Shown: positions 18,513 to 44,854, numbered from the stretch's first letter. The stretch is 64,000 nucleotides of DNA from an uncultured Acidobacteriota bacterium (GCA_963832145.1 CAWHTA010000005.1:54562-118561); one strand, 5' to 3'. Made by a program: numbers and translations. Notes: generated from the sequence alone by a model not told the origin.

Positions 18513-19963
18513 GCCCGTCCTTTCTGGTCTTCGGTCCGGCCGACCTCGCCGCTTCCGCGCCGGAGATCGCCCTCGCGGCGGCGGGCTGTCTCATCCTCCT
18601 GCTCGACGCTTTCGTGCCCTCCTCGCGGCGCTGGCTGGCGACCCTTTCGCTCGCGGCGATCGCGGCGTCGGTGTGGTTCCTGCTCCGCGCGCCGGCGGGT
18701 CTGACGTTTGGCGCGCGGTACGAGACGTCGGACCTGACGACGGCGGCAGGAATCATCGCCGCGGCGACCGCGGTCCTCGCGATCCTCGTCGCCAAGCCGT
18801 ATCTCCAGCGCACCGGCGAGGAAAAGGGGGAGTTCTACGCACTCCTTCTCTGGGGACACCTGGGCGTCTCCCTCATGATCCGGGGAGTCGACCTGCTGAT
18901 CGTGTTCATCGGGCTCGAGACCCTCTCGCTCTGCTTCTACGTCCTCGCGGCCTTCTTCCGAACCATGCCCGCTTCCTCGGAAGCCGGCCTGAAGTACTTC
19001 CTGACCGGCGCATTCGGCTCGGCTTTCACGCTCTACGGAATCGCTCTCCTCTTCGGGAAGTCCGGAAGCGTCCGGATCGCTGCGCTTTCCCGCCCGGACC
19101 TGGCCGCAGACCCGCTCGTCGCGCTCGCGCTCCTTCTCCTGCTCGTCGGGTTCGGTTTCAAGATGTCGCTCGCTCCGTTTCACGCGTGGGCGCCCGACGT
19201 CTACCAGGGGATGCCGACGCCCGCCGTCGCCTATCTCTCCGTCGCTCCGAAGGCCGCGAGCCTCCTCGTGCTGTACCGCATCCTCGCGGCCGTATTCGAG
19301 GCCGGGCTTCCGGACCGCTTTCGGGCCGCGATCGCCGCGCTCGCGATCCTCTCGATGAGTCTCGGCAACGTCGTCGCGCTCGCACAGAGAGACGTCAAGC
19401 GGCTCCTCGCCTACTCGGGGATCGCGCACATGGGATACGTCACGATTGCCCTGGCCGTCTTCGGAACCGACGCACTCGCCGCGGTGATCGTGTACTTCTT
19501 CGCGTACGTCGCGTCGAACGCCGGCGCCTTCGCCGCTGTCTCCGCTCTTTACCGGGACGAGTCGAAACCTCATCCCGTGGGGCTCCTTGCGGGCGAGGGA
19601 CGGCGCTCCCCCTTTCCCTCCGCGGTCCTCGCGCTCTGCCTCTTTTCGCTCGCGGGCATTCCCGCGACAGCGGGATTCATCGGCAAGTTCTTCGTCTTCA
19701 AGTCCGCCATCGAGAGCGGGCTCTACGCGCTCGCGATCGTCGGTGTGGTCAACAGCCTGGTGTCGATCGGCTACTACCTGAAGGTCGTTTACGTCCTCTA
19801 CATGCGGGATCCCGTCGAGGAGGAGGCGCCGCCGCGCCTCGCTCTCGCCGACCGTCTTGCCCTCGGCCTGTGCGCCGCCGGAATTCTCGTCATCGGGATC
19901 TTTCCCGCGAGGCTCTGGGACCTCGCCCGGCAGGCCGCCGCCGACCTCGCCATCGGTCCATGA
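18509..19963 (+). CDS. nuoN: NADH-quinone oxidoreductase subunit N
   Basis: EAGLKYF, PFHAWAPDVYQG and KRLLAYSGIAH. Confidence 0.96.
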   Translation: MSPSFLVFGPADLAASAPEIALAAAGCLILLLDAFVPSSRRWLATLSLAAIAASVWFLLRAPAGLTFGARYETSDLTTAAGIIAAATAVLAILVAKPYLQRTGEEKGEFYALLLWGHLGVSLMIRGVDLLIVFIGLETLSLCFYVLAAFFRTMPASSEAGLKYFLTGAFGSAFTLYGIALLFGKSGSVRIAALSRPDLAADPLVALALLLLLVGFGFKMSLAPFHAWAPDVYQGMPTPAVAYLSVAPKAASLLVLYRILAAVFEAGLPDRFRAAIAALAILSMSLGNVVALAQRDVKRLLAYSGIAHMGYVTIALAVFGTDALAAVIVYFFAYVASNAGAFAAVSALYRDESKPHPVGLLAGEGRRSPFPSAVLALCLFSLAGIPATAGFIGKFFVFKSAIESGLYALAIVGVVNSLVSIGYYLKVVYVLYMRDPVEEEAPPRLALADRLALGLCAAGILVIGIFPARLWDLARQAAADLAIGP

Positions 19964-19991
19964 GCGCTCCCGGCGGTTTCCGTCCACCGAG

Positions 19992-20657
19992 ATGAGCCGC
20001 ACGCCTGCCCTCTCGCGGCCGGCCCGGGACCCGAGGGATTCCGTTTCCGAGGCAACCGCCTCCCGGCTGTCCGTCTACCTCCGATGCCTCGCCACGCTCG
20101 AGGCGGACGGGAAAGCGCACGTCTCCTCCCTCGAGCTCGCCCGCCGCTTCCGCCTGAACTCCGCGCAGATCCGGAAGGACCTCGCCACGTTCGGCGAGTT
20201 CGGCATCCGCGGAGTCGGATACGAGATCGGCGCGCTGAAGCGCCACCTGATCTCGATCCTGGGCCTCGACCGGACGCGCAAGGTCGCGATCATCGGCGCC
20301 GGACGTCTCGGGTCGGCGCTGGCGGACTACGGCGGATTCCGATCCGGCGGATTCCGCATCGTGGCGCTCTTCGACAACTCCCGCGAGCGGATCGGGTCGA
20401 AGAGCCGATCGGGAGTTCCGGTGCACGACGTTCGACAGCTCAACGAGCTCGTTTCCCGGGAAGGCATCGAGATCGCCGTTCTCACGGTTCCCGCCTCCGA
20501 AGCCCCCGAGGTCGCCCGTCAGTGCTGGGCCGCCGGGCTGAAGGCCGTGCTGAACTTCGCGCCCGTTCGACTCGACGCGCCCGCCGACGCCTACCTCAAG
20601 AACGTGGACCTGAAGATCAACCTCGAAACTCTGTCCTTCTACATCGCTCGCGCTTGA
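19992..20657 (+). CDS. rex: Redox-sensing transcriptional repressor Rex
   Basis: RLSVYLR, SAQIRKDLATFGEFGIRGVGY, IIGAGRLG and LNFAP. Confidence 0.96.
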   Translation: MSRTPALSRPARDPRDSVSEATASRLSVYLRCLATLEADGKAHVSSLELARRFRLNSAQIRKDLATFGEFGIRGVGYEIGALKRHLISILGLDRTRKVAIIGAGRLGSALADYGGFRSGGFRIVALFDNSRERIGSKSRSGVPVHDVRQLNELVSREGIEIAVLTVPASEAPEVARQCWAAGLKAVLNFAPVRLDAPADAYLKNVDLKINLETLSFYIARA

Positions 20658-20689
20658 GCGAGACTTACCGGGCCCCAAAGGAGATAAGA

Positions 20690-22066
20690 ATGCGTTCCAA
20701 GCCGAAGGCGGTTTCGACGGTGGCCCGTATCGTGCCCCGCCCGAAACCGGGGCCCGCACAACGCCCCTCTCCCCCTCTCGCTCCCGTGCCCTCCCGGACC
20801 GCGAAGCCGAAGGCGGTCACCCCGGAGAACCTGAACCCCTTCGACTTCGCCATCCTGCAGTTCGACAGGGCCGCCGACAAGCTCGGACTCGACGCCGGCA
20901 TCCGCCAGGTGCTGAGCACCCCGAAGCGTCAGCTCATCGTCTCGGTACCGATCAAGATGGATGACGGAACGATCCGCGTCTTCGACGGCTACCGGGTCCA
21001 GCACTCGATCGCGCGCGGACCGTCGAAGGGCGGCATCCGGTACCACCCGGGCGTCACGCTGGACGAGGTCAAGGCCCTCGCAATGTGGATGACGTGGAAG
21101 TGCGCCGTCGTCAACATTCCCTTCGGAGGCGCGAAAGGCGGAATCACCGTCGACACCAAACAGCTCTCGATGGCGGAAAACGAGCGGATGACCCGCCGCT
21201 ACACGTCGGAGATCTCGATCCTTCTCGGCCACGATCGCGACATCCCCGCGCCGGACGTCTACACGACGCCCCAGACGATGGCGTGGATGATGGACACCTT
21301 TTCGATGACGAAGGGGTACTCGACTCTCGGCGTCGTCACCGGCAAGCCGCTCGCTGTGGGGGGCTCGGCCGGCCGCAACGAGGCGACGGCGGAAGGGTGC
21401 TTCGTGGCGATCGAGGAGGCGGCGAAGCGATTGAGCCTTCCCCTCAAGGGTGCGACTGCGGCGATCCAGGGATTCGGCAACGCCGGCGCCGCCGTCTCGA
21501 AGTTCCTCGACGAGGCGGGCGTCAGCGTAGTTGCGGTATCGGACTCGAGCGGCGGGATCTACGACAAGAGAGGCCTCGCGCTCAACGCGGTCGTCGCCGC
21601 CAAGGACCGGAAGGGGTCCGTAACCGCCGCGCGCGGAGAGAAGATCACCAACGACGAGATCCTCGAGCTCCCGGTGGACATCCTCGTTCCTGCGGCGCTC
21701 GAGGGGGTCATCACGCGGGAGAACGCCGCTCGCGTCCAGGCGCAGATCGTCGCGGAGGCCGCCAACGGTCCGACGACGCCCGACGCGGACGACATCCTGC
21801 GAAGCAAGGGCACCGTCGTCATCCCCGACATCCTCGCGAACGCCGGAGGAGTGACCGTGTCCTACTTCGAGTGGGTGCAGGACCTCTACTCCTTCTTCTG
21901 GGAGCCGGACGTGGTTCGCAACCATCTCGAGCGAACGATCCGCCGCGCGTACGAGGAAGTCGACGAGACCGCGCGCCGGCACGGCACCGACCTCCGCACG
22001 GGGGCGCTCGTGCTCGGCGTCGGGCGCGTCGAGGAGGCGCTCCGGATCCGCGGTCTTTTTCCCTGA
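20690..22066 (+). CDS. gdhA: Glu/Leu/Phe/Val dehydrogenase (glutamate dehydrogenase)
   Basis: GPSKGGIRYHP, GGAKGG, DIPAPD and ANAGGVTVSYFEWVQ. Confidence 0.92.
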   Translation: MRSKPKAVSTVARIVPRPKPGPAQRPSPPLAPVPSRTAKPKAVTPENLNPFDFAILQFDRAADKLGLDAGIRQVLSTPKRQLIVSVPIKMDDGTIRVFDGYRVQHSIARGPSKGGIRYHPGVTLDEVKALAMWMTWKCAVVNIPFGGAKGGITVDTKQLSMAENERMTRRYTSEISILLGHDRDIPAPDVYTTPQTMAWMMDTFSMTKGYSTLGVVTGKPLAVGGSAGRNEATAEGCFVAIEEAAKRLSLPLKGATAAIQGFGNAGAAVSKFLDEAGVSVVAVSDSSGGIYDKRGLALNAVVAAKDRKGSVTAARGEKITNDEILELPVDILVPAALEGVITRENAARVQAQIVAEAANGPTTPDADDILRSKGTVVIPDILANAGGVTVSYFEWVQDLYSFFWEPDVVRNHLERTIRRAYEEVDETARRHGTDLRTGALVLGVGRVEEALRIRGLFP

Positions 22067-24866: not shown

Positions 24867-26281
24867 CGCCCGAACAGGCGCTCGATTCCACAGTCTCGGA
24901 GGTCGCCCCTCTCGTTCGTTCACGGCAGCTTTCGCCCGTCGCCCTGGCCGAGGCATCACTCGACCGCCTCGAGAAGGAGGGTCGGGCGCTGAACGCGGTC
25001 GCCACGGTCACCTCGGCGCGCGCTCTGGAGGAAGCCCGGGCCGCGCAGAGAGAGATCGAAGCCGGAAACTACCGCGGCCCCCTGCACGGGATCCCCTATG
25101 GCGCCAAGGACCTTCTCGCGACCCGGGGAATCCCCACGGGTTGGGGGGCGCGTCCGCTGAAAGACCAGACGTTCTCCGAAGACGCGACGGTCATTCGGCG
25201 GCTCCGCGAGGCCGGAGCAGTGATCGTCGCGAAGCTCGCGATGATCGAGCTGGCCGGAGGGCTCGGCTACAACACCGCGGCCGCGTCGTCCGCCGGGGCG
25301 ACCAAGAATCCCTGGGACCGGACGCGGTGGAGCTGCGGGTCCTCTTCCGGTTCCGGCTCGGCGACCGCCGCGGGCCTCGTCGGCTTCTCGATTGGCTCCG
25401 AGACGTGGGGCTCGATCCTCTGCCCGTCGGCCTTCGGTGGCGTCACGGGCCTCCGTCCGACGTACGGCCTCGTCCCCCGGACCGGCGCGATGGCCCTTTC
25501 GTGGACCATGGACAAGATCGGCCCGATGGCGAGGTCCGCGGACGACTGCGAGGTCGTGCTTCGCGCGATTGCCGGACCCGACCCCGGCGACCCTTCGTCT
25601 GCCGCGGAAGGTCTCGAGGGCGCGGGGGAAAGTCGGCTCCAGGCGCGCGGCCTCCGGGTCGGAGTCGTCCGCCCGGATTTCGGAAAGATCTACGACCCCG
25701 AGGTCGCGGCGGCGTTCGAGGAGACGGTGCGAACCATTTCCGGCCTGGGCGTCACGACCTCGGAAGCAAAGCTTCCCGACCTCCCGTTCGACGAGACGGC
25801 GGTGCTCATGATCGTCGTCGAAGCCGCTGCGGCCTTCGAGCCGCTGATCACCTCGGGGAAAGTTCGCGAACTGGTGGAACCCGCCGTGAGGTGGGCGGGA
25901 GACGCTGCCCGCACGGTCAGCGCGCTCGACTACGTTCGCGCCATGCAGGCCCGCCGCCTGATTCAGCAGGCTCTCGGGGAAGTCCTCGAGCGGTTCGACG
26001 TACTGATCTCACCGACACTGCCCATTACGGCGCCGAAGATCTCCGACAAGCTCGAGACCTCCTTCGCGTACAGCGATCCAGTCGGTTCGGGCGGAAACCT
26101 GGCCGGATTGCCGGCCCTCTCTCTCCCCTGCGGGTTCTCGAAGGCCGGACTTCCGATTGGCTTTCAGATCGTCGGCCGACCCCTCGGAGATCTTCAGGTG
26201 CTGGCTTTCGGCCGTCTCTTTCAGGAGAGCACCGACTGGCACCAGCGCCGGCCACCAAAGTCGACTGCCGCCCCGGCCTAG
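24863..26281 (+). CDS. Amidase signature family protein
   Basis: PLHGIPYGAKDL, GSSSGSGSA and GSETWGSILCPS. Confidence 0.93.
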   Translation: MTPEQALDSTVSEVAPLVRSRQLSPVALAEASLDRLEKEGRALNAVATVTSARALEEARAAQREIEAGNYRGPLHGIPYGAKDLLATRGIPTGWGARPLKDQTFSEDATVIRRLREAGAVIVAKLAMIELAGGLGYNTAAASSAGATKNPWDRTRWSCGSSSGSGSATAAGLVGFSIGSETWGSILCPSAFGGVTGLRPTYGLVPRTGAMALSWTMDKIGPMARSADDCEVVLRAIAGPDPGDPSSAAEGLEGAGESRLQARGLRVGVVRPDFGKIYDPEVAAAFEETVRTISGLGVTTSEAKLPDLPFDETAVLMIVVEAAAAFEPLITSGKVRELVEPAVRWAGDAARTVSALDYVRAMQARRLIQQALGEVLERFDVLISPTLPITAPKISDKLETSFAYSDPVGSGGNLAGLPALSLPCGFSKAGLPIGFQIVGRPLGDLQVLAFGRLFQESTDWHQRRPPKSTAAPA

Positions 26282-26427
26282 AACATCGGAAAAGGTTTCG
26301 CCCGCTCGCGACGGAGTTGGCGCCGGAGGTCCGAATCCCGCACACGCGGTTCCGGGCGGTCTTTCTTCGGCGGCCGCAATGCCGCGACGAGCTTTCGCCA
26401 GAGACGAATGATGATGCTTTCTCTCAC
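26278..26427 (-). CDS. Putative 49-aa basic small protein (MRESIIIRLWRKLVAALRPPKKDRPEPRVRDSDLRRQLRRERAKPFPMF)
   Basis: Translated by hand. The GTG start overlaps the TPR gene TGA (GTGA), and the ORF fills the gap exactly to the convergent amidase stop. Confidence 0.5.
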   Translation of the reverse strand: MRESIIIRLWRKLVAALRPPKKDRPEPRVRDSDLRRQLRRERAKPFPMF

Positions 26428-27877
26428 GCCTTCGGTTTGGAGGCGTCGCGAATGTCGGCCGGCAGGAGCTTCCGCTGCCGAATTGCTTCCCTCAGCAGGT
26501 TCACCGCAATCACCGCGTCCGCGAGCATCCCGTGCTCCTCAAGCATCGGCAGTGCGGCGCGGATCTCAGTTTCCGCTTCCCTCGGCCGACCCATGGCAAG
26601 GTACGTCTCCGCGATGAGCATGCGGTGGTACCCCTCCGGCCACGTCATTCCGAGCCGGGCGTGATCCTGACGGCTCATCTCGAGGAGGTTCAAAGCCTCG
26701 TCGAATCTCCCTTGCGAGCGATAAATGCAGGAAATCATGGAGTTCAGGTCGGCTAGGCCGACGTATTGCTTGCCCTCCCTAAGGAGACGTGCCGCTTCGC
26801 CGAACTCTTCAAGAGCTTGGTCATACTGCGCCAGGTTCTGATGAATGTCCCCAGATTGAAGCAGTACCCAACCGAAAAGTGCCGGCCGTATCCTCGATCG
26901 CCAGTGTCGTACGGGCTCCAGCACATCGAGTGCGTCATTAGGGAGGCCCGCAAGTTTCAGAGCACCCGCCCAGAGAATGCGACACTTGACACGGCCCTCC
27001 TCCATGCCCAGGTTGGTGAACGCGGCTGTCGAGTTGCGGGGCGACTTTCCCGACGATCTCCAGGCTACCGAGGGTATAGAAGATCGTTAGGCGCTGATAT
27101 AGGACTTTTGCCAGCCCCGGCTTGCGGATTTACGCCAGCTCCGAAATGATTCTCGGCAAGGTCAAGCCACCTCCCACTCTCGGTAAGCGTTTCCCACCCC
27201 ACGCAGCGCTGCTCCCAATAGCACTGCAGCTTCCCCGAGAAAGTAGAGACGAAGATCCGGTTCCATGTCTCCCGTTTCATGCTCGAGAGAGGCATAGACC
27301 GTCCGGAGTGCGTTCGAAACTCCTTTTGGATCTGTTTCGACGCTGTCGTGGAGATATATCAATGCTTGGAAAATGCTCTCGGCGCTACAATCGGAAGGAA
27401 ATCTTCGGAGCCTTCGAACCAACCAGCAGCCAGGTCATTGAAAATGGATGTCCTGAAGACGCTCTTGTACTCAGCCTCCCATCGATGAGCCTCTCCCGAT
27501 TGATCGAGGATTCTAGATGCGCGCCAAGCAACAAACGCGAACGAGCAAAGAAGCGATTCTTTCTCCTCAAGCGCGTCTTCCGGCCAACGCACGTTCTCCA
27601 GACGTGCGCGGATCTGCCCTGCTTCTTCGAGGGAACGCTGAGGGGTGGAGGCGCAATCGGTCATCAGAGCGCGGCAAACAGCGTGGAGTAGGTCCGTCGA
27701 TTCGTCCTGTTGCTCTAGATCCACCCTTGGCTGAATACCGGCCGCAACGTCCAGGCGAAACCGGATCCCTCGTTCCATCGAATCTCTTACGGAAAAACCC
27801 GTCGCGACCGAGACATCGGGAGCGATCTCAAGCCAAAAGGGAATCAGATCGAGCAGATGCGAGTCACTAACTCGAAT
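26424..27877 (-). CDS. TPR-like helical repeat protein 1 (frameshifted)
   Basis: Pieced together from ORFs 27359-27778, 27162-27422, 27065-27295 and 26424-27005. TPR-like helices include IYRSQGRFDEALNLL and IAETYLAMGRPREA. Start uncertain (ATT 27877 after AAGGAGG, or ATG 27778). Confidence 0.7.
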
Positions 27878-28269
27878 GGTCTCCTCCTTGAGGTTCCGTT
27901 TCCCCGTAACCTTCCGGACCCTCCCACTGGTCTTCCCGGACGGCCATCCGCGATTCGGACGGGGACCATTTGGTGACCAGTTTCGCCCGTCGGACCAGTT
28001 TGCGCTGGAAATTTACCGCCAAGTGGTCGACGACCTGTATTAGCCACGCTTTAGGGTTCTTTGAAGGATCGAGTTTCACAAGGGCGACAATAAACGCTTC
28101 CTGAACGACGTCTCGGGCGTCTTCCTTCTCGAAGCCGATGCCTCCACGTTGCTCGGCGGACGAGCGGGAGGAAGTACTGTCGATAGAACTCATCGAATAG
28201 CGCCGGATCGGACAAGAGGGGGTTGCCGGGGACATTCCCGGCCGCGATCTGCTTCCCCTTCCCTTTCAC
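27867..28269 (-). CDS. ECF sigma-70 region-2-only protein 1 (one frameshift near 28130)
   Basis: FDEFYRQYFLPLVRRA..EDARDVVQEAFIVAL..NPKAWLIQVVDHLAVNFQRK matches ECF sigma2. No region-4 HTH follows. Confidence 0.72.
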
Positions 28270-28339
28270 AATTCTCGCTTCGCGCCAAGGTCTCAATATG
28301 TATTGTCGCGAGGATGCGGAACAGGGGATTCGGGTAGAC

Positions 28340-28360
28340 GAGCCGCCCTGACGGCGGTTC
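28340..28360 (-). terminator. Hairpin directly after the TPR protein 2 stop
   Basis: GAACCGCC-gtcag-GGCGGCTC on the minus strand; no U-tract. Confidence 0.35.
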
Positions 28361-29481
28361 CTAACCGGCTTGGAGGTGGGCTTTTAGCTCTTGCAGGGCT
28401 TTGGGATCGGCCTTCCGCCGGCTGACCGACTCGCGAAGCAGGGCAGCCGCCGCGAAAGCTTCGGGAACCATCTGAATCTCATCGATCACCGGAAGGGCGG
28501 CCAGAATCTCCCACTCCGCTTCGCGCTCACGCCTCATCTCGAGCAGTGTTTCTGCAATTACGAGATGGGTGTAAGCGACCTGTCCTCTCAATTCCAGAGC
28601 CCGATAGTCGCCCTGAGCTGCTCGGAAAGCCAGCTCGGCTTCGCCAAGCGAGCCCATGGCCTTATGAACACCGCCCACGTAGAGCTTTAGATCAGCCTTG
28701 GCCAGGCACAATTCTTGACCTTCCAAAGGAGCCAAGGCCTTCTGAAAGGCCGCCATGGCCAATCCGAACTGGCCTACCAACTGCCTGAGGTCGCCGAGTT
28801 CGCTCAAGATTCGCGCGCGCAGCGAAGCATCGTTTCTTAGGGCCGGAGCGTCATGGAGATCGCCGAGGGATTCGATCGCCCTGTGAGTGCTCGCCCAGTC
28901 TGCTTGAGCGTCATGGCGAGAAGGAGAGTGCATTTCGCCGCGTCGACTTCCATCCGGAGTTTTCGGAAGCTCGATTGGAGTGAGGGCGCGAGCTCCAGAT
29001 ACGTGCTGATACCGACCCATTTCGAATCGAAGGGCCAACGCGCATACGCAACGTTCGCGAGGCCCAGGCGCAGGGTTCATGGTGTGCCGAAAACCAGCCT
29101 CTGCCCGATCGAGCCAGAGCAAGGCTTCTTCTCGTTTGCCAAGCTACACGGGATGCTCCAGACGCCAGAAGAGCAAACTCGCCGAGGGCATAGTCGCGCT
29201 CGTCGAACAGTCCGAGGTAAAGCCCGGCCTCGCGATCCATTCATAGACTTCGCGCGTTCCCGCTCTAGGACTATGCCGGGGTCGGCATCTCGTCCTCAAA
29301 ACCGCGCAGATCGACAAGAGAACATCTGGATTCGAGAAGTGCTGCTCCCGATGCGCATTCGGTTCTTTCCTCTGTCGGAATGGAAAGATAGTCACGCGCC
29401 TCGACTTCGGCCTCCTGAGGCGAAAGCCAGGCCTTCTCCGGCCGGGACCGGGAAGTGGAGGATCTTGGCGTTAAGACTCAT
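28361..29481 (-). CDS. TPR-like helical repeat protein 2 (frameshifted), paralog of protein 1
   Basis: Starts MSLNAKILHFP, overlapping the upstream gene. Pieces are ORFs 29144-29395, 28911-29240 and 28361-29122. C-terminus IAETLLEMRREREAEWEILAALP..LLRESVSRRK aligns with protein 1. Confidence 0.72.
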
Positions 29482-29887
29482 TCGGTGTCCGAAAATTCAG
29501 GAGTTCAAGGCTTCGTGAGAAGTCGCGAGCAACGTCGAGCGGTTCACGCTCCAGGAGTCGCTGGAGTTTTTCGTCAGAGGTTCGCGCACCGGAGCCGAGT
29601 ACGTATCGTTGGTACTCCCTTGCAAACTGACAGCACGCGACAAGAAGAAAGGGGCGGGCGTCGCGTGCTGAGGAATTGCCGGGCCGGTAGCAGAAACGGA
29701 GGAACCAAACGTACAGGTCTTTCTCGAGTTCGAGCGCTTCCGATTCGCTGAGCTGGTAGTGCGTGACGAGCGCGATGTGAATGAGACCGAGAGTTTCCTG
29801 GAAGACGGCGCGAACGTCTTTCTCGAAGGTCTCCGCGCTCGAGCGCGAGCCCATCAGATCGTCCACTGCATCCATCGCCATCTCCAT
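29471..29887 (-). CDS. Degenerate sigma-70 region-2-like protein 2
   Basis: Intact 138-aa ORF. YQLSESEALELEKDLYVWF..ARPFLLVACCQFAREYQR parallels the sigma2 DAEDLVQE..WL..IA.N...D..R pattern. Confidence 0.55.
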   Translation of the reverse strand: MEMAMDAVDDLMGSRSSAETFEKDVRAVFQETLGLIHIALVTHYQLSESEALELEKDLYVWFLRFCYRPGNSSARDARPFLLVACCQFAREYQRYVLGSGARTSDEKLQRLLEREPLDVARDFSRSLELLNFRTPNES

Positions 29888-30007
29888 ATGTTCTTGGGAG
29901 TCGGGCGGAGCTTAAATGGTGGGAAGCAGAAATGCAAATCCCCTTCCCCAAAGATTCACAATGGAAGGAAGAGGCTTAGATTGTGTGAGTTGAGGGCCTA
30001 CGAAGCC

Positions 30008-30040
30008 CTAGTTAGGAACGCTGCCCCTAAGACTGGGCAT
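30008..30040 (-). CDS. Micro-ORF, 10 aa MPSLRGSVPN
   Basis: GAAAGGAGG-atttc-ATG, hairpin AGGGCTTCGTAGGCCCT at the stop, and candidate promoter TTGCTG-N16-GACAAT at 30102-30075. Confidence 0.6.
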   Translation of the reverse strand: MPSLRGSVPN

Positions 30041-30398
30041 GAAATCCTCCTTTCGTTCGCAACGCCCCGGACCCATTGTCCGGCGCTAAAGAAAAACAGC
30101 AAGCTTGTGAAAGCGACTGAATCGACGACGCTGGAAAACGGCTGTGTTTACCGGCCTTTTCTCAATGCGAACGACGAAGCCGAAGCTGTCACGAGCTCGG
30201 GGCCCCACCAAAAAACGAGGGGGTTTCCACCAGGTGAAAAACGAATCGGTGACATTCGACCATAGATCCGATCAGCCATGACAAGAAATCTTTCAGTCCA
30301 TTGGTCGTACGACTAAGGTCGTAGAGAGAGGATAACACCTCTCGGGACTCTCGGAGCGAGGAAAGAGGGGTGAATATCGAGAAGGCGGGAGGTGGGGT

Positions 30399-31922: not shown

Positions 31923-34336
31923 CTGAGATTCGACGCCGATTCGAAGACGTTCGAGGTTTCGGTGCGCGAGCTCGCCGAGGAAGAAGGATTCCGGCGCGTC
32001 GGGTTCGATCGCGGTGACGGATGGCGGCGCCTCGGACTCGGGACCGAAGTTCACTCGCGCGTTCTCGCTCTGCGCCTCGAGACTCATGCCGCCTACCGCT
32101 GCGAAGGTGCACCTCCAGGCGCGCGTGCCGGTCGAGGACTGGACCGCGGTGCTGACCGGCCGTCTCGACGGCTGCGTGGAACGCGCGAAAGACTCGTGGC
32201 TGATCGAGGAGTTCAAGTCCGCCTATCTCTCGTCCGAAGGCTTTCGCTCTTCGGGATACGGGGTCGAGCGCGATCGACGGCAGCTTCTCGGTTACTGCTA
32301 TCTCTGGCGCCGACTCGGACACCCGCACGTCACCGGGGCGCTCGTCTACGTCGACATCGCGACCGGCGAAGAGCTCTCGCTCGCGGTCCCCTACGACGAC
32401 GAACAGTACGATCGGGACGTCGAGGCGCGCCTACACGCCTTTCTCCGCGCCTGGAAGGCCCGCGCCAAAGCGCGGGCGCGGAAAGCCGCTGCGGCGGATC
32501 GGCTCCCCTTTCCACACGCCGCCGCCCGACCGATCCAGGAGAAGCTGATGGAGGCGGTCGGACTGCGCGATCGCGCAGGGAGAAGTCCTGCTCGCAGAGG
32601 CTCCGACCGGCTCCGGAAAGACGGCCGCCGCCCTCCACCCGGCCATGGCGGCCGGGCTCCGCACGGGGAGGCAGGTGGTCTTCCTCACGTCCAAGACGCT
32701 GCAGCAGAAGATGGCGGTCTCCGCTCTGACGGCCATGAACGAGCGTGCGTTCCACACCCTCCAGGTCCGCGCGAAAGAGAAGATGTGCGCGAACGACCGG
32801 ATCCTCTGCCACGAGGACTTCTGCCGCTTCGCCAGGAACTATCCCGAGAAGATGGCGCGCTCCAACATCCTCGGACGCCTTCGCGACTCGTACCCGCATC
32901 AGGATCCGGACGTCGTCTTCGAGGAAGCGCGGCGCGAGGAGGTCTGTCCGTTCGAAGTGCAGCTCGAGCTCGCGCAGCGCGCCGACGCAATCGTGGCGGA
33001 CTACAACTACGTCTTCGAGCCGGGCGTCGCCATGCGCCACCTGATCGGCGAGCAGCTGAAGGACGCCATCCTGATCGTGGACGAGGCGCACAACCTGCCC
33101 GATCGTGCCCGGCAGATCTTCTCTCCCGAGCTTCTGGAGGAGGACCTCGCTTTCGCTCGAAAACGGCCTGGCGCTTCAGCCCGGCGACCTCTTCGGGGAC
33201 CTCGTTGCGAGCGTTCGACGACCTCCTCGCAATCCTCGCGGCGACGGCGGAGGAGCTCCCCGAAGGAGACGCGATCGCGGAGGTCACCCCTCCCGCGGAC
33301 GCGATCCGCGCGCTGGCGCGCCGAGTGGGAGCCCCGGCTGCTGCGCTATCTCGAGTGGAAGCGGGACACGCGGGCCGGCCCTTCCCGAGGATCCCATCCT
33401 CGACCTGCACTTCACCCTTCTTCGACTGGCCGCCGTTCTGAACCTCTACGGGCCGGACTTCGCCTGTGTCGTCGAGAGGCGGGCGTCCGGACTTCGGCTC
33501 GCGCTCGTGTGCCTCGACCCGGCGCGCGCGGTGGGCCCCGTGTTCCGTTCCGCGTTCTCCGCCGTCCTCATGTCCGCGACGCTCGCCCCGCATTCCGCGA
33601 TCCAGCGTCTCCTCGGTCTGCCCGACACGCGAACCGGATCGATCTCGCTGCCGCCCCCGTTCCCGCGGGAGAACCGAAAGGTACTGATCGTGCCGAAGGT
33701 CAGGACCACGTTCGCGGCCCGCGAAAAGAACTACGCTCCGCATCGCGAAGCTTCTCGCCGAGATGTCCGACGCGCACACGGGGAATGACCTCGTGCTGTT
33801 TCCCTCCTATCGATTCCTCGCGTCGGTTGCCGAGAGGATGCCGCCGACCCGCGCGAAACTGCTCGTTCAGCGGGCCGACCTCACCGCTTTCGAACGGCAG
33901 CGCGTGCTCGCCGCGCTCACTTCGCCGCCACCCGAGGGGATCCTGCTGTTCGCGGTGTCGGGTGGGATGTACGCCGAGGGCGTGGACTATCCCGGAGACG
34001 TGCTCTCCGGGGTCTTCGTCGTCTCGCCGGCGCTTCCCCAGGTGTCCTTCGAGCGAGAGCTTCTCCGGCGGTACTTCGAGGAGCGTGAGGAGGCCGGCTT
34101 CGACTACGCCTACCTGCAGCCGGGAATGACGCGGGTCGTTCAGGCGGCGGGCCGGCTGATTCGAAGCGAGACGGACCGCGGCGTCATCGCCCTTCTCTGC
34201 CGGCGGTTCCTCGAAGAACCCTACGCGAGCCGGCTGCCCCGGGACTGGTACGCGGAGAGCCCGAATCGAGCTCGTCTCCCAGCGGCCTGCCGACGAGATC
34301 CGCGAGTTCTTCGACGGATACGGAAGGCCGTCGTGA
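31923..34336 (+). CDS. DinG/XPD-family Fe-S helicase with N-terminal PD-(D/E)XK nuclease-like domain (frameshifted)
   Basis: GRLDG..IEEFKS, then EAPTGSGKT, KMC..C..C, VCPFE, IVDEAHNL, MSATL, FPSY, EGVDYPG and QAAGRLIRSETDRG. GGAGG followed by a CTG start. Confidence 0.85.
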
Positions 34337-40801: not shown

Positions 40802-41456
40802 CTAGCCCCCATGCCGGCGGCGCGCAAGGATTCTTTGCGTCGCGGCGCGGACGGCCGGCGTCAGACCGGGCGAGACGCTCCAGGCGGTCAGGTCTTCGTC
40901 GGCCGCCCGCTCGAGGAGACCTTCGAGGACCTCCCGCGTCGCCCTCGGATGGGAGAGAACCGCCTCGCGGACGGGTCGGCGCACGCTCCAGCGGGGGTGC
41001 CGGCGCGACGGCCGCGAGGGTTTCGGGGTGCGCCCTCGGCCCGATGGTCCCCAGGACGTCGGCCTCGGTGGAGAAGCGGTTGTCCAGCAGCGCGGCCACG
41101 ACGCGGGGGTCGGGGTCGTGCCGGAGCGCGGAGAGCATGCCCCGCCCGGCGGTGCGGGCGAGGTGCATTCGCTCGGCGAGCGCCATCTCGCAAGCGCGTC
41201 GGAGGAGGAGCCGGTCGGCCGCCCGGCGGACGTCGGGGTGGGCCCGGACATCGGCCGAAAGGTGCGCCAGGTCGTACGAAAACAGCGTCTCGACCAGGGA
41301 GAGAGCTTCCGAGCGGGGCGTCAGACGGTGAGAGGCGAGGGCGAGGCGGACGGCATGGAATCGGCGAGCCTCCGGGTCGCGAAGAATCCCCTCGAGCTCG
41401 GACTGGGTCAGATCCACCCGGCGCAGCTGCGCGAGAAGCTGTCCTTCCGCTCCCAT
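40802..41456 (-). CDS. Hypothetical helical-repeat protein (frameshifted)
   Basis: [22 protein letters not shown] and [18 protein letters not shown]. Confidence 0.65.
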
Positions 41457-41459
41457 CGC

Positions 41460-42291
41460 CTACGACTTTCGGAGGGGGTGCCGCGGGTCCGCGCGTCGAC
41501 AGGCGCTCGCCAGCTTCCGCGAGAGGCGCCCGAACGCGGCCGGGCCCGCGCGCTCGCGCGGCGCCGACGAGAGCGGACCCGACGACGACGCCGTCGGCGA
41601 GCCGGGCGGCGGCGCGAGCGGCGTCGGGAGTCGAAATGCCGAAACCGACGGCGATCGGGAGTCGGGCGCGGGAGCCGCGCGGCGCGCTCGCGCGACGGTC
41701 GCTCGAAGGCTCTCCGGGAGCGAGTCGCGCGCGCCGGTCGTCCCCGTCCGCGAGACGACGTAGAGGAAGCCGCTCGACAGCCGGGCGGCGCCCGCTCATC
41801 CGCTCGGGCGATGACGTCGGGGAGACGAGGAAGACCGTCTCGAGGCCCGCCGCGCGAAGGATCGGCTGGATCTCCCCCGCCTCCTCGGGCGGGAGGTCGG
41901 TCAAGAGAACGCCGTCGAACCCGGCGGCCTTTGCCTCGGTCGCCGAACGCTCGAGCCCGCGCCGCAGGAGCGGGTTCAGGTAGGAGAAGAGGACGAGCGC
42001 GGTCGCGCTCTCCCGTCGGATCTCGCCGCGCGATGCGCCAGCACCGCGTCCAGGGTCGTGCCCGCCGCGAGCGACCGGGACGCCGCCCGCTGGAGCACCG
42101 GACCGTCGGCGATCGGATCGGAGAAGGGGACGCCCAGCTCGAGGATGTCCACCCCGGCGCGATCGAGGGACCGCGCGAGCGCGACGGTGCCGCCCGCGAC
42201 GGGATCGCCCGCAGTGAGATAGCCGACGAACGCGGCCCTCCCCTCGCCGGCCGCCCGCGCGAAAGCGGCGGCGATCCGGCATCGCCGTCAC
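41460..42291 (-). CDS. trpA: Tryptophan synthase alpha (frameshifted)
   Basis: [40 protein letters not shown] and [11 protein letters not shown] across frames. Confidence 0.9.
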
Positions 42292-43475
42292 CCGAGCCGC
42301 GTTCTCGACGATCTCGAGATCCTTGTCGCCGCGCCCGGAGAGATTCACGAGGATCCAGGACCTCCGCGTCATCGTGCGAGCGAGGCGCACGGCGAACGCG
42401 ATCGCGTGGGCGCTCTCGAGCGCGGGCAGGATTCCCTCGGTCCGCGCGAGGAGTCGAAACGCATCGAGCGCCTGTCGGTCGGAGACGCGCGCGTAGCGCA
42501 CGCGGCCGGTCGATTCGAGGTACGCGTGCTCGGGGCCGACCGCCGGGTAATCGAGCCCCGCCGACACCGAGTGCGTCGGCAGGACCTGTCCGCCGGCGTC
42601 CTGCAGCAGCATCGTCCGCGTGCCGTGGAGGACGCCCACGGAACCTCCGCCGAACCGCGCCGCGTGGTCGCCGGGCCGTCGGCCCCGGCCGCCCGCCTCG
42701 ACGCCGTACAGCCGCGACCGGGGAGTCGAGGTACGCCGAGAAGAGCCCGATCGCGTTCGATCCGCCGCCCACGCACGCGACCGCGGCGTGCGGGTCACGC
42801 CCCGCGAGCCGGCGAAACTGGGCGCGCGCCTCCCTTCCGATGACCGACTGGAAGTGCCGGACCATCGCCGGATACGGATGCGGGCCCGAGCGCCGATCCC
42901 GAGGACGTAGTGCGTCGTCGCGACGTTTTCGATCCAGTCGCGCATCGCTTCGTTGATCGCGTCCTTCAGACGTCCGGGAGCCGGAGTCGACCGGCACGAC
43001 CTCCGCGCCGAGCAACCGCATCCGCGAGACGTTGGGCGACTGCCGCTCCATGTCCACCGCGCCCATGTAGACGACGCAGGGAAGCCCGAGCCGCGCCGCC
43101 GAGGCCGCTGTCGCGACGCCGTGCTGCCCGGCTCCGGTCTCGGCGACGACTCGCGTCTTGCCCATCCGCCGCGCCAGGAGCACCTGGCCGAGGCAGTTGT
43201 TGAGCTTGTGGGCGCCGGTGTGGAGGAGGTCTTCCCGCTTCAGGACGATCCGCGCGCCCCCGGCGCTCGCGGCGAGCCTTGGCGCTTCGGTGATCGGCGT
43301 CGGGCGACCGCCGTACGTCGTGAGCAGGTCACGAAGCTCCTCCCGGAACCGCCGGTCCCTGCGGTAACGCTCGAAGGCGCGCTCGAGCTCTTCGAGCGGC
43401 GCCATCAGGGTCTCGGGCGCGAAATCGCCCGCCGAACGGGCCGAAGTAGCCGGTGTGTCTAGCCGGCGCGCGCAT
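42288..43475 (-). CDS. trpB: Tryptophan synthase beta (frameshifted)
   Basis: [33 protein letters not shown] and NLSGRGDKD. Confidence 0.94.
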
Positions 43476-44085
43476 CGGCTTCCCGGACGGCCGCGAAGAA
43501 CCTCTCCATCTTCGCGTGGTCCTTCACCCCCGGCGAGGCCTCGACGCCGGACGCCACGTCCACCGCCGCCGGGCGCGTTCTCGTGATCGAGTCGGCCACG
43601 TTCGCCGGGTGGAGACCCCCCGCAACGAAGAGCGGCACGGTCCAGGACCGTCCTTCGAGCAACGACCAGTCAAAGGGGACGCCGCTCCCGCCTCCTGCGG
43701 CGCCGGACGAGGAGTCGAAGAGGATTCCGGCGCATCGTGCGAGGAGATCGGGAGCAGGAATCTCTTCTTCCCGGCCTGCCCGGACGACAGCGAGCACCTC
43801 CACTCCCTCGTGCCGCAGGTCGTCCGCGACGAGCGGGCGGTGGAGCTGAACGAGATCGAGCGGGACCTCGGCGACGGCCTCTTCGATGTCGCGATAGCTC
43901 TCTTCCACGAAGACCCCGACCCGAAGGGCTCCCGTCGCGGCCGCGGCGAGGCTCCGTGCACGCGCGGGCCCAACGCGGCGAGGCGAGAGAGCGGAGAAGT
44001 TGAAGCCGACGTACGCGGCGCCGAGAGCGCACGCGGCGCGGACGTCCTCCTCGCGAGTCAGCCCGCAGACCTTCACGTCGGTCAA
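43459..44085 (-). CDS. trpF: Phosphoribosylanthranilate isomerase
   Basis: [20 protein letters not shown] and DVASGVE. Confidence 0.93.
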
Positions 44086-44854
44086 CCCGCGAGCTCCCGA
44101 AGCATCGATTCCGGATCCTCCGACCGAAGGAGGCTCTCCCCGACGAGAAACGCCTTCCACCCCGCGGCCGAAGAGGCGCGCGACGTCGTCCCGGGACGGG
44201 ATCCCGCTTTCCGCGAGCGGAATGGCGCCCGGCGGGATCCCGGCCGCAAGAGGTCGAGCGACGGCAATGGTCCGTCTCGAAGGTCGCGAGATCGCGCGAG
44301 TTGACGCCGAGGACGTCGGGATGGACCGCCGCGGCTCGCGGAATCTCCTCGCGGCCGTGAGCCTCGACGACGACGGCGAGGCCGCGGTCCGGCCGCGGCG
44401 CGGCGGAGCTCTCCGAGCGACTAGTCGTCGAGCGCGCGGACGATGAGAAGAACGGCATCGGCGCCGAGCGACAGCGCGAAGTCGAGCTGGCGTTCGGAAA
44501 CGACGAAGTCCTTCATCAGGACGGGGAGGCCCGAGATCCGCCTGGCCCTCGTCACCCAATCCGGTTCTGCCTCCGAAGTGGTCCTGCTCGGAGACGACGG
44601 AGATCGCGGCCGCATGCCCGCGGCGGAACGCCAGGGCGAACGTTTCGAGCTTGCCGTCCGCGCCGGGGAGGATCTCTCCCGCCGAAGGAGACCTCGCCTT
44701 GATCTCGGCGATGATGCGGGCTCCGGGCTCCGAGAGGGAGGCGACGAATCGCTTGCCGTCGCTCGTCCGGGCCGCCGGTCCCATCGCGGACGTACTCGCC
44801 GCGAGCGAGCCGCAGTCGCTTGTCGGCGAGAATCCGGTCGAGAACCCCGCTCAA
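44082..44854 (-). CDS. trpC: Indole-3-glycerol phosphate synthase (frameshifted)
   Basis: [38 protein letters not shown] and LVGESLL. Confidence 0.9.

What the first reader, a model, noticed from the sequence alone, without database searches (positions are those of the whole stretch)
26278..30110. Candidate new regulatory system: micro-peptide + tandem (sigma2-only protein / TPR protein) modules
Seen: a visibly more AT-rich minus-strand island between the amidase and dacB. Its order is 10-aa micro-ORF > sigma2-like protein (138 aa) > TPR-like protein (~370 aa) > sigma2-only protein (~133 aa) > paralogous TPR-like protein (up to ~480 aa) > 49-aa basic ORF. Within each pair the genes overlap or abut. 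Known: ECF sigmas need both sigma2 and sigma4; TPR regulators of the RRNPP family bind short peptides; split sigmas exist (B. subtilis SigO-RsoA). Inference: a peptide-responsive switch in which TPR proteins partner truncated sigma2 proteins, as anti-sigma factors or as the missing specificity half. I do not recognise this architecture as described.
Basis: partly seen in the sequence, partly recalled or inferred. Interest (0 to 1): 0.85.

Follow-up and report, generated by a model that had tools for sequence, protein, structure and literature searches.

The report
Half-sigma factor with TPR partners
An uncultured soil Acidobacteriota lineage keeps a conserved gene cassette, not described before, in which a sigma factor reduced to its RNA-polymerase-binding half is paired with a large repeat protein predicted to grip it, behind a conserved ten-residue mini-gene.

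Summary
The observation largely holds. Between dacB and an amidase lies a low-GC, minus-strand cassette. Its order is structured leader, 10-codon uORF, 138-aa helical protein ("small A"), ~373-aa TPR-A, a conserved ~22-nt DNA motif, an ECF sigma with region 2 only (~131 aa), then ~480-500-aa TPR-B.

The window copy carries 14 single-base frameshifts and no in-frame stops. Same-genus relatives are intact. Similar frameshift clusters hit conserved genes elsewhere in the window, so these are most likely assembly errors.

The cassette sits at one chromosomal site across many genera of Thermoanaerobaculia MAGs. The uORF (M-x-S-[LIV]-x-G-x-[VI]-P-x) is found in 49 of 66 loci.

The sigma2-only family never carries sigma4. 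A complex prediction places it in TPR-B's N-terminal helical domain (ipSAE 0.80; best control 0.00). Natural fusions join that sigma-binding subdomain to a small-A-like domain.

Not supported:
- Small A as sigma2-like: four tests were negative and there is one weak lead.
- RRNPP membership.
- The 49-aa ORF as a gene.

Peptide sensing could not be tested. Best reading: an ECF-derived sigma/anti-sigma-like switch, a new variant of a known kind.

The parts
30041..30335 (-). Conserved non-coding leader between dacB and the uORF. It holds the palindrome TACGACnnnnGTCGTA (30308-30323), a GC-rich hairpin (about 30086-30064) followed by a U-rich run, and the GCGAAAGGAGGA ribosome-binding region (SD 30052-30045).
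   Evidence: The genus alignment is more conserved here than in coding DNA. The palindrome is present in the 10 loci that cover this site, which come from 6 same-genus genomes, and occurs once in the window. In 31 sequences from many genera, 6 of 6 hairpin pairs show compensatory changes. There is no Rfam match.
30008..30040 (-). 10-codon uORF (MPSLRGSVPN, then stop).
   Evidence: Same length and position in 6 of 6 same-genus genomes, in 10 of 11 loci from other genera, and in 49 of 66 A-type loci. There are 46 distinct peptides; the V/I8-P9 positions are invariant, and Pro uses CCG 9, CCC 20, CCA 8 and CCT 12.
29471..29887 (-). Small A: 138-aa all-helical protein of an unnamed family. It is intact in the window.
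   Evidence: 0 frameshifts and 109/136 identity to the G001 orthologue. 654 homologues, none of the 120 listed with a Pfam domain. AF2 pLDDT 85. The family is in 35 of 36 genomes of the taxonomic family.
28361..29481 (-). TPR-A: about 373-aa TPR protein. Its ATG overlaps the end of small A by 11 nt. It is broken by 9 single-base frameshifts in the window.
   Evidence: Frameshift-aware alignment to the intact G001 protein gives 235/360 identity and no in-frame stop. Intact 373-aa orthologues are seen. TPR-A follows small A in 59 of 59 loci with enough sequence.
28290..28315 (-). Conserved motif cCTCGYGACAATATGTArGTArG upstream of the sigma2-only gene. The window core is TCGCGACAATAC at 28311..28300.
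   Evidence: Found in 53 of 56 sigma2-only upstream regions, 50-142 nt before the profile match; the other 3 carry near variants. It is close to unique per genome, and 4 of 5 hits in five other genomes lie just upstream of sigma2-only genes.
27867..28269 (-). Sigma2-only protein: ECF-type regions 2.1-2.4 plus an acidic tail, with no region 4. It has one frameshift near 28128.
   Evidence: Pfam Sigma70_r2 E 6.7e-7. NCBIfam ECF models match region 2 only. 86/129 identity to G007 with 1 frameshift. The family profile hits sigma2 domains of SigR, SigJ, SigH and CnrH in PDB.
26424..27922 (-). TPR-B: about 480-500 aa. It has an N-terminal helical domain that TPR-A lacks, then a TPR-A-like body. It carries 4 frameshifts in the window and its start codon is uncertain.
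   Evidence: TPR-A matches TPR-B profile positions of about 148-495 only. The N-domain (residues 18-179) forms the predicted interface with sigma2-only.

Best explanation
This is a vertically inherited regulatory cassette of one family of Thermoanaerobaculia (Acidobacteriota). It is not a foreign island, and in this genome it is most likely not a set of pseudogenes.

Shown:
- Five conserved parts lie in a fixed order at a fixed chromosomal site (dacB upstream).
- One part is an ECF-derived protein that keeps sigma regions 2.1-2.4 and has no sigma4.
- Two TPR paralogues each follow a small protein with overlapping reading frames.
- A 10-codon uORF is under selection at the peptide level.
- A conserved hairpin sits before the uORF.
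- A nearly invariant ~22-nt DNA motif sits before the sigma2-only gene.

Predicted: the sigma2-only protein sits in the N-terminal helical-repeat domain of TPR-B. That domain covers helices 2.1, 2.2 and 2.3-2.4.

Inferred:
- TPR-B acts like a cytoplasmic anti-sigma factor. It holds the half-sigma away from RNA polymerase until its TPR body receives a signal.
- Once released, the half-sigma docks on the beta-prime coiled-coil. It then acts at promoters that need no -35 contact. The motif before its own gene is the first candidate, which would give autoregulation.
- Small A with TPR-A is a second, older input module. Small-A-like domains are found naturally fused to the sigma-binding subdomain, so small A probably acts on the same complex, for example by partner switching.
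- The uORF and hairpin set how much of the operon is expressed.
For: Conservation and synteny:
- Intact cassettes lie between dacB and the amidase in G007 and G001.
- In 80 loci from named MAGs, TPR-A follows small A in 59 of 59. Sigma2-only lies downstream in 47 of 50, and in 43 of these at +1150-1700 nt. The TPR-B N-domain is found in 40 of 50.
- In other genera dacB (Peptidase_S13) lies upstream in 5 of 5 loci tested, and a UPF0227 hydrolase lies downstream in 4 of 4.
- Cassette GC is 0.57-0.60 against 0.65-0.70 in the flanks in 12 of 12 relatives.

Sigma2-only.

Binding: ipSAE was 0.81, 0.80 and 0.80, and the best of 3 controls was 0.00. The tool's mark was reached by 58 of 80 solved complexes and by 2 of 110 mismatched pairs. 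The runs agree in at least 67% of contacts, and the partner's pLDDT is at least 63. The interface is TPR-B residues 18-179 with sigma2 residues 24-91. I found no solved complex of this kind.

Fusions: 21 of 24 representative proteins of 200-300 aa carry the TPR-B N-subdomain followed by a small-A-like domain. In G021, one such gene directly follows a sigma2-only gene.

Motif before sigma2: 53 of 56.

uORF and hairpin.

Frameshifts as errors:
- There are 14 indels and 0 in-frame stops in the island.
- Similar clusters of +1 shifts hit conserved genes elsewhere. One example is 5 shifts in a gene with 318/386 identity at 42.3-43.5 kb.
- In run X5, contigs 90-95% alike differ from the window by single-base indels at 27026, 29038, 29061 and 29144. 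Each lies within 5 nt of a predicted shift and has the matching direction. X5 shows none across the coding stretches where no shift was predicted.
Against: - No experiment exists, and every genome is an uncultured MAG.
- Binding is a model's confidence only, and my own alignments (12 and 28 rows) were used.
- The TPR-B N-domain resembles no known anti-sigma fold. Foldseek gave 0 hits at E<=1e-3, and the top hits were designed helical repeats.
- Nothing shows that the half-sigma touches RNA polymerase or DNA.
- The motif could be an operator or an RNA element rather than a promoter. No regulon was found: there are only 1-2 copies per genome.
- The roles of small A and TPR-A are inferred from gene order and fusions alone.
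- Small A with TPR-A also occurs with no sigma2-only gene nearby, in 13 of 13 C1-type loci.
- Frameshift evidence is partly mixed. One X1 contig over 29001-29144 does not show the X5 indels; it has 2 gaps of its own at places not listed. The X5 contigs come from a related population, not from the same strain.
- Some relatives also show fragmented copies.
Confidence: 0.5

Rival explanations
1. Two-subunit sigma factor. The complex of sigma2-only with TPR-B (or with small A) is the active form. The partner replaces sigma4 on the beta flap or on DNA, as SigO does for RsoA and gp33 does for gp55. The TPR body tunes activity, as the TPR extension does in ECF42.
For: The two genes are co-encoded and their frames overlap. 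Binding is predicted. Regions 2.2-2.4 of the half-sigma are strongly conserved. Precedents: the SigO-RsoA split (PMC8103513, passage); gp55 plus gp33 called a split sigma (PMC2988020, passages); the ECF42 TPR extension is essential for activity (PMC8999054, passage).
Against: No sigma4 or HTH was detected in 12 of 12 TPR-B proteins, in the N-domain fold or in small A. The predicted interface covers helix 2.2 and the 2.3-2.4 face. From recalled knowledge these are the core-binding and -10-binding surfaces, which suits sequestration better than co-operation.
Confidence: 0.2
2. Sigma mimic or exapted fold. The sigma2-like protein no longer works on RNA polymerase. It is a decoy or adaptor in a purely protein-protein switch, comparable to the sigma-like domain of PhyR. 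Its conserved residues serve binding to TPR-B.
For: The conserved sigma2 surface coincides with the predicted TPR-B interface. No regulon motif was found beyond the gene itself. A related module (small A with TPR-A) exists with no sigma-like part at all. PhyR as a sigma-like protein is from a passage of PMC8103513.
Against: No full-length ECF close to it was found in these genomes for it to mimic; all hits at E<=1e-8 are short. The motif before its gene looks more like a DNA signal than a by-product.
Confidence: 0.13
3. In this genome the cassette is decaying. The 14 frameshifts are real and the genes are pseudogenes.
For: Frameshift density is higher in TPR-A (9 in 1.1 kb) than in the two direct neighbours (amidase 0, dacB 2). 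Several other MAGs also show broken copies. One X1 contig does not show the X5 indels.
Against: There are no in-frame stops, and identity after frame correction is 65%. Equally dense clusters of +1 shifts lie in well-conserved genes elsewhere in the window. The indel sites and directions match differences to X5 contigs. Small A, the uORF and both DNA motifs are intact.
Confidence: 0.12
4. One reading: the 10-residue peptide is a trans-acting ligand of the TPR proteins (a peptide-responsive switch), not a cis-acting leader peptide.
For: Selection acts on the peptide, with fixed length, an invariant C-terminal [VI]-P-x and synonymous codon variation. From recalled knowledge, TPR domains commonly bind short C-terminal peptides, for example in RRNPP regulators, Hop and PEX5. 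The uORF accompanies only the full cassette: 49 of 66 A-type loci have it, and no credible case was seen at 13 C1-type loci, where the 3 pattern hits lack a ribosome-binding site.
Against: There is no export signal or processing partner. About half the start codons are TTG (24 of 49). A hairpin and U-run directly precede its ribosome-binding site, which suits a cis-acting leader. Peptide-level conservation is also expected for an arrest peptide. Binding could not be tested.
Confidence: 0.25

Closest known systems
[quoted passage not shown]
   Same: The sigma2 function lies on a small separate protein (RsoA) that is co-encoded with its partner (PMC8103513, passage).
   Different: The partner SigO carries sigma4. 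Here no sigma4 or HTH is detectable in TPR-B or small A. The partner is a 480-500-aa helical-repeat/TPR protein.
ECF42-type ECF sigma factors with a C-terminal TPR extension
   Same: An ECF sigma domain is functionally coupled to a TPR domain of about 200 residues (PMC7826278 and PMC8999054, passages).
   Different: In ECF42 sigma2, sigma4 and TPR are on one chain. Here sigma4 is absent and the TPR is on a separate protein. Only 5 longer forms were found, and the one sigma2-TPR fusion looks like a one-base frame fusion.
Phage T4 gp55 with gp33
   Same: gp55 is a sigma with region 2 only. It docks on the beta-prime coiled-coil and uses a promoter with a -10-type element only. gp33 stands in for sigma4 (PMC2988020, passages; the -10-only promoter is recalled).
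   Different: That system is phage-encoded and activated by the sliding clamp. No sequence relation was tested or claimed. Here the genes are cellular and chromosomal and have a TPR partner.
Cytoplasmic anti-sigma factors and partner switching (class I anti-sigma domains; PhyR-NepR-EcfG)
   Same: A co-encoded protein is predicted to cover the sigma2 surface. A second small protein could switch partners.
   Different: The sigma-binding domain is a helical solenoid of about 180 residues with no fold match to known anti-sigma domains. There is no zinc motif and no membrane segment was noticed by eye. The sigma lacks sigma4, which class I domains also contact (recalled).
RRNPP peptide-sensing TPR regulators (Rap, NprR, PlcR, PrgX, AimR)
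   Same: A TPR protein is encoded next to a very short ORF.
   Different: There is no HTH. The peptide gene is 10 codons with no signal sequence. The one Rap structure among the fold hits is not significant (rank 21, E 0.15). The lineage is Acidobacteriota, not Bacillota (the usual RRNPP range is recalled).

Membership tests
ECF (group IV) sigma-70 factors | Sigma-70 region 2 domain (PF04542) | tested here: met
   Pfam E 6.7e-7, 29.5 bits against a cut-off of 24. The profile hits ECF sigma2 domains in PDB. PF04542 is on all 120 best homologues.
ECF (group IV) sigma-70 factors | Sigma-70 region 4 domain on the same protein | tested here: not met
   Pfam and NCBIfam matches cover region 2 only. 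18 of 18 relatives are 113-138 aa and end in an acidic tail. The 120 best hits are 108-165 aa and carry PF04542 only. The ECF classification discards such proteins (PMC7826278, passage).
ECF (group IV) sigma-70 factors | Binds RNA polymerase core and directs initiation | not testable with these tools
   Needs biochemistry.
Two-subunit sigma (SigO-RsoA type) | Co-encoded partner that carries sigma4/HTH | tested here: not met
   Pfam on 12 TPR-B proteins finds TPR families only. The N-domain fold has no sigma4 match. Small A has no Pfam, PDB or Foldseek match.
Class I anti-sigma factors | Anti-sigma domain fold or signature (four-helix ASD, often with a zinc motif) | tested here: not met
   Foldseek of the TPR-B N-domain gives 0 hits at E<=1e-3 and no anti-sigma chain among those listed. 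There is no Pfam anti-sigma family.
Class I anti-sigma factors | Binds its cognate sigma | tested here: inconclusive
   Prediction only: ipSAE 0.80 against a best control of 0.00.
RRNPP | TPR sensor domain | tested here: met
   TPR_12 and related families are found in TPR-A and TPR-B.
RRNPP | N-terminal HTH DNA-binding domain (all members but Rap) | tested here: not met
   None is found by Pfam in 12 of 12 TPR-B proteins or in the C1 TPR-A paralogue.
RRNPP | Adjacent gene for a secreted, processed pro-peptide | tested here: not met
   The adjacent ORF is 10 codons long in all 49 loci where it was found. That leaves no room for a signal peptide.
ECF42 | TPR extension fused C-terminally to sigma2-sigma4 | tested here: not met
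   The genes are separate in 18 of 18 loci mapped. Only 5 longer homologues were found.
Sigma-70 region 2 fold (claim for small A) | Detectable sequence or structural similarity to sigma2 | tested here: not met
   Negative. The only lead is an Atlas feature score of 0.93 to a cluster in which 58% of members carry PF04542; the tool itself notes that such rows are often chance.

The most novel reading that the evidence does not exclude
A cellular sigma factor that has done away with sigma4. The ~130-aa half-sigma, once released from a helical-repeat/TPR keeper, drives transcription from a -10-only promoter (CTCGYGACAATAT...). Release is controlled by a partner switch that involves small A and TPR-A, and by a genetically encoded 10-residue peptide that the TPR domains read. 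This would be a bacterial counterpart of T4 gp55 with its own peptide-gated anti-sigma.
Probability: 0.2. Interest if true: 0.9.

Novelty: new variant of a known kind. Interest (0 to 1): 0.72.

Why it matters
Surveys of sigma factors require both sigma2 and sigma4, so half-sigmas are filtered out before anyone looks at them (PMC7826278, passage). Here a half-sigma family is under clear purifying selection across many genera. It has a dedicated partner predicted to hold it, its own conserved DNA motif, a second paralogous module and a conserved mini-gene.

If the half-sigma acts on RNA polymerase, promoter recognition without sigma4 is not limited to phages. If it does not, this is a new case of a sigma fold turned into a signalling part.

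Either way the cassette gives testable parts: two protein pairs, one DNA motif and one 10-residue peptide. They come from a large soil lineage that has no genetics. The case also shows that frameshift-ridden long-read MAG regions can hide intact systems.

Tried and rejected
- Small A as a sigma2 domain: Pfam, NCBIfam, PDB profile search, Foldseek and hhalign were all negative.
- Small A as a relative of the TPR-B N-domain: hhalign probability 0.1%.
- Sigma4 or HTH hidden in TPR-B: not found.
- Known RNA family in the leader: no Rfam match at E<=1.
- Simple promoter and terminator scan: not above shuffles, with 1 against 1.0 and 8 against 4.9±2.2.
- Defence system: no PADLOC match for 5 proteins.
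- Foreign island: rejected. The site and the low GC are conserved across genera.
- Regulon of the sigma2 motif: only 1-2 copies per genome. The second copy in the own genome lies before a Phd/YefM-RelE-like pair and may be chance (about 0.4 expected by my own estimate).
- Fused sigma2-TPR forms as support for binding: only 5 longer proteins were found. The 607-aa one reads like a one-base frame fusion of overlapping genes, so I do not count it.
- 49-aa ORF: not conserved.
- Expression: no RNA holder was listed for the stretch. Parts of the stretch without contig cover say nothing.

Full report
**What is in the window.** The stretch from 26.4 to 30.4 kb has GC of 0.53-0.61, against 0.65-0.72 on both sides. 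The cassette is 0.581, dacB 0.686 and the amidase 0.686.

Reading the minus strand in three frames gives this order:
- a 10-codon ORF behind AAGGAGGA (30040..30008);
- an intact 138-aa ORF, here called small A (29887..29471);
- pieces of a TPR protein in changing frames (TPR-A);
- a sigma-70 region 2 protein in two frames (28269..27867; Pfam Sigma70_r2 E 6.7e-7; NCBIfam ECF models match region 2 only and stay below their cut-offs);
- pieces of a second TPR protein (TPR-B), 32% identical to the first;
- a 49-aa ORF (26427..26278).

**Are the broken genes real?** Same-genus genomes hold the same locus between dacB and the amidase, with intact genes.
- G007 has 155/137-aa small A, 373-aa TPR-A, 131-aa sigma2-only and TPR-B of up to 540 aa.
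- G001 has 137, 373, about 134 and 501 aa.

A frameshift-aware alignment of these proteins to the window gives these counts:

| Gene | Frameshifts | Identity after frame correction |
|---|---|---|
| TPR-A | 9 | 235/360 |
| sigma2-only | 1 | 86/129 |
| TPR-B | 4 | not stated |
| small A | 0 | not stated |
| amidase | 0 | not stated |
| dacB | 2 | not stated |

There is no in-frame stop anywhere.

The same script, run on ORFs of 40 kb of flanking G007 sequence, finds other clusters of mostly +1 shifts in well-conserved genes. One gene at 42.3-43.5 kb has 5 shifts at 318/386 identity, and its neighbours have 6 and 5. That list also contains spurious high-GC ORFs, which I did not remove.

No public run holds the stretch nearly identically; the shares of shared words were at most 0.09. 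Contigs of run X5, 90-95% alike, differ from the window by single-base indels at 27026, 29038, 29061 and 29144. Each lies within 5 nt of a predicted shift and has the matching direction. X5 shows no indel over the coding stretches where none was predicted. One X1 contig over 29001-29144 does not show those indels; it has 2 gaps at places not listed.

I read the shifts as assembly errors, at about 0.85. Decay of this one copy is kept as a rival.

**How widely is it conserved?**
- Small A relatives are in 35 of 36 genomes of the same taxonomic family and in 0 of 24 genomes of two sister families.
- Sigma2-only is in 21 of 36 and 0 of 24.
- Both tallies include two unpublished genomes, G024 and G025.
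- A scan of one genome per species found 136 encoding stretches. The 80 kept are all titled Thermoanaerobaculia or Acidobacteriota MAGs.

Profile searches over these 80 loci separate two types.
- 67 are 'A-type' loci, orthologues of the window's small A.
- 13 are 'C1-type' loci, named after a second, intact pair on contig C1 of the own genome. That pair is 116 aa plus 368 aa with an ATGA overlap.

TPR-A follows small A in 59 of 59 A-type loci with at least 1.2 kb downstream. Of 50 loci with at least 3.9 kb downstream, 47 have sigma2-only (43 of them at +1150-1700 nt) and 40 have the TPR-B N-domain. Some of the rest are fragmented by frameshifts. C1-type loci have the TPR protein in 13 of 13 and sigma2-only in 0 of 13. 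In an earlier set, 19 of 20 C1-type loci had the paired TPR gene.

In other genera the neighbours are again dacB upstream (5 of 5 tested) and a UPF0227 hydrolase downstream (4 of 4). The cassette is about 10 GC points below its flanks in 12 of 12 relatives. So the island is old and vertically inherited, and its low GC is a lasting property rather than a sign of recent transfer.

**The half-sigma.** Eighteen relatives from 18 loci are 113-138 aa. They share F-Y-R-x-x-F-L-P-L-V-R-R ... E-D-A-R-D-V-V-Q-E-A-F ... A-W-L-x-Q-V-V-D-H-L-x-x-N-F-x-R-K and then end in a short acidic tail. The profile finds sigma2 domains of SigR (5e-5), SigJ, SigH, CnrH and others in PDB. Among 933 database proteins at E<=1e-5, the 120 listed are 108-165 aa and carry PF04542 alone. 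No sigma4 is present on the protein.

Only 5 longer homologues exist. The one sigma2-TPR fusion (607 aa) reads like a one-base frame fusion of the two overlapping genes.

**TPR-B and the predicted complex.** TPR-A aligns to TPR-B profile positions of about 148-495, so TPR-B is TPR-A plus an N-terminal extension of about 147 residues. Pfam sees only TPR families in 12 of 12 TPR-B proteins.

The first 246 residues fold with confidence into ten helices (pLDDT 86.5). They match nothing specific in PDB: 0 hits at E<=1e-3, with designed helical repeats on top.

The one complex job paired G001 TPR-B with G001 sigma2-only.
- Scores were 0.81, 0.80 and 0.80; the best of 3 controls was 0.00.
- The mark was reached by 58 of 80 solved complexes and by 2 of 110 mismatched pairs.
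- The runs agree in at least 67% of contacts, and the partner's pLDDT is at least 63.
- My own alignments were used, so these counts hold only roughly.
- The interface is TPR-B residues 18-179 against sigma2 residues 24-91. On the sigma side that is helices 2.1, 2.2 (including Q58) and 2.3-2.4 (including W77).

From recalled knowledge, these sigma surfaces bind the beta-prime coiled-coil and the -10 element. That is why I favour sequestration over co-operation. This step is inference.

**Small A.** It belongs to a family of 654 detected proteins, none of the 120 listed with a Pfam domain, all named 'hypothetical' where named. Its model is confident (pLDDT 85, five helices) but has no fold match. 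It also has no PDB sequence match, and its profile-profile relation to the sigma2-only family has a probability of 2%.

The short hhalign stretch does pair equivalent-looking helices. A language-model search also puts a cluster with 58% PF04542 at 0.93. The tool marks such rows as often chance. I therefore do not call small A sigma2-like.

A library-wide profile search gave 128 representatives. Of the 24 that are 200-300 aa long, 21 consist of the TPR-B N-subdomain (profile positions about 5-120) followed by a small-A-like domain.

In genome G021, one such gene directly follows a sigma2-only gene. On the other strand of the same locus, a small A gene is followed directly by sigma2-only and TPR-B with no TPR-A. 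These rearrangements tie small A to the sigma-binding domain and suggest that it acts on the same complex. How it does so is not shown.

**The micro-ORF and leader.** A 10-codon ORF with an ATG, GTG or TTG start and a [VIL]-P-x-stop ending lies at a fixed distance before small A.
- It is present in 6 of 6 same-genus genomes.
- It is present in 10 of 11 loci of other genera.
- It is present in 49 of 66 A-type loci, against 8 pattern hits in the remaining 2 x 606,633 nt.
- Many of the misses are in loci that also show frameshifted genes.

The 46 distinct peptides give M-[NT]-S-[LIV]-[T]-G-[GPS]-[VI]-P-[SAG]. Pro9 is invariant with all four codons in use, and start codons are TTG 24, ATG 21 and GTG 4. 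That is selection on the peptide.

Directly upstream lie a GC-rich hairpin, whose 6 of 6 predicted pairs have compensatory changes in 31 sequences, then a U-rich run and GGCGAAAGG. Within the genus about 300 nt of leader are more conserved than the coding DNA, including a perfect palindrome. No Rfam family matches.

A cis-acting leader peptide and a trans-acting TPR ligand both fit, and I could not test either. I lean to the cis reading, because of the hairpin at the ribosome-binding site and the many TTG starts.

**A DNA motif before the half-sigma gene.** In the TPR-A to sigma2 spacer, 53 of 56 loci carry cCTCGYGACAATATGTArGTArG, 50-142 nt before the profile match. The other three have near variants. 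In the window it is at 28311..28300.

It is almost unique per genome. In the own genome there is one further copy, before a Phd/YefM-RelE-like pair. In five other genomes, 4 of 5 hits sit just upstream of sigma2-only genes.

A strongly conserved element with no conserved -35-like partner upstream is what a sigma4-less, self-regulating sigma would need. An operator or an RNA signal is equally allowed by the data.

**Comparison with what is known.** The system works most like a sigma/anti-sigma pair or a split sigma. It fails membership tests for each named family.
- It lacks sigma4, so it is not an ECF as defined. The classification discards such proteins (PMC7826278, passages).
- Its partner has no sigma4, unlike SigO (PMC8103513, passages).
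- The TPR is on a separate chain, unlike ECF42 (PMC8999054, passages).
- The sigma-binding domain is not a known anti-sigma fold.
- RRNPP features other than TPR are absent.
- T4 gp55 with gp33 is the nearest functional precedent for a region-2-only sigma (PMC2988020, passages).

Four full-text searches found no description of this arrangement. Supplements were closed and may hold more.

**Verdict.** The finding is real and conserved, and as far as I could search it is undescribed. I rate it a new variant of a known kind, with interest of about 0.7.

Noticed in passing
window 41400-44900, 18600-20800 and 32000-34200: Clusters of single-base (mostly +1) frameshifts lie in otherwise well-conserved genes. 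One gene at 42.3-43.5 kb has 5 at 82% protein identity. A helicase-like gene at 32-34 kb is split over two frames. The assembly has regional indel errors, so any ORF-based reading of this genome needs frame-aware comparison.
   Followed up: partly
window 31719 and 31774 (dacB, minus strand): dacB (Peptidase_S13) has two +1 frameshifts just after its signal peptide. The listed 426-aa ORF is therefore a truncated reading of a protein of about 485 aa.
   Followed up: partly
window 30308-30323: A perfect palindrome TACGACnnnnGTCGTA sits at the 5' edge of the conserved leader. It is present in the 10 loci that cover this site, from 6 same-genus genomes. It occurs once in the window, where 0.06 is expected even with one mismatch allowed. 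It is a candidate operator.
   Followed up: partly
G000:C1:71835-73290 (L005 1492-2948): A second, intact small-protein plus 368-aa TPR pair (ATGA overlap) lies in the same genome with no sigma2-only gene nearby. This 'C1-type' module is the most widespread form.
   Followed up: partly
G000:C11:209935-209946 (L168 about 1501-1512, minus strand): The only other copy of the sigma2-upstream motif core in the own genome lies about 55 nt before a Phd/YefM-like antitoxin and RelE/ParE-like toxin pair. It also shares an ATTGAG stretch a few bases further on. It may be chance.
   Followed up: partly
L166 (G021:C3:313500-324500): This is a variant locus. On one strand the order is small A, sigma2-only, TPR-B, with no TPR-A. 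On the other strand, sigma2-only is followed by a protein of about 250 aa made of the TPR-B N-subdomain plus a small-A-like domain.
   Followed up: partly
window 26282-26295: About 12 nt just past the amidase stop codon (the C-terminal codons of the 49-aa ORF on the other strand) are conserved among same-genus genomes, while the rest of that ORF is not. The function is unknown.
   Followed up: no
window 26424-30040 and 12 related loci: The cassette keeps a GC content about 10 points below its flanks in every genus examined, although it is vertically inherited. The reason for this lasting composition difference is unexplained.
   Followed up: partly
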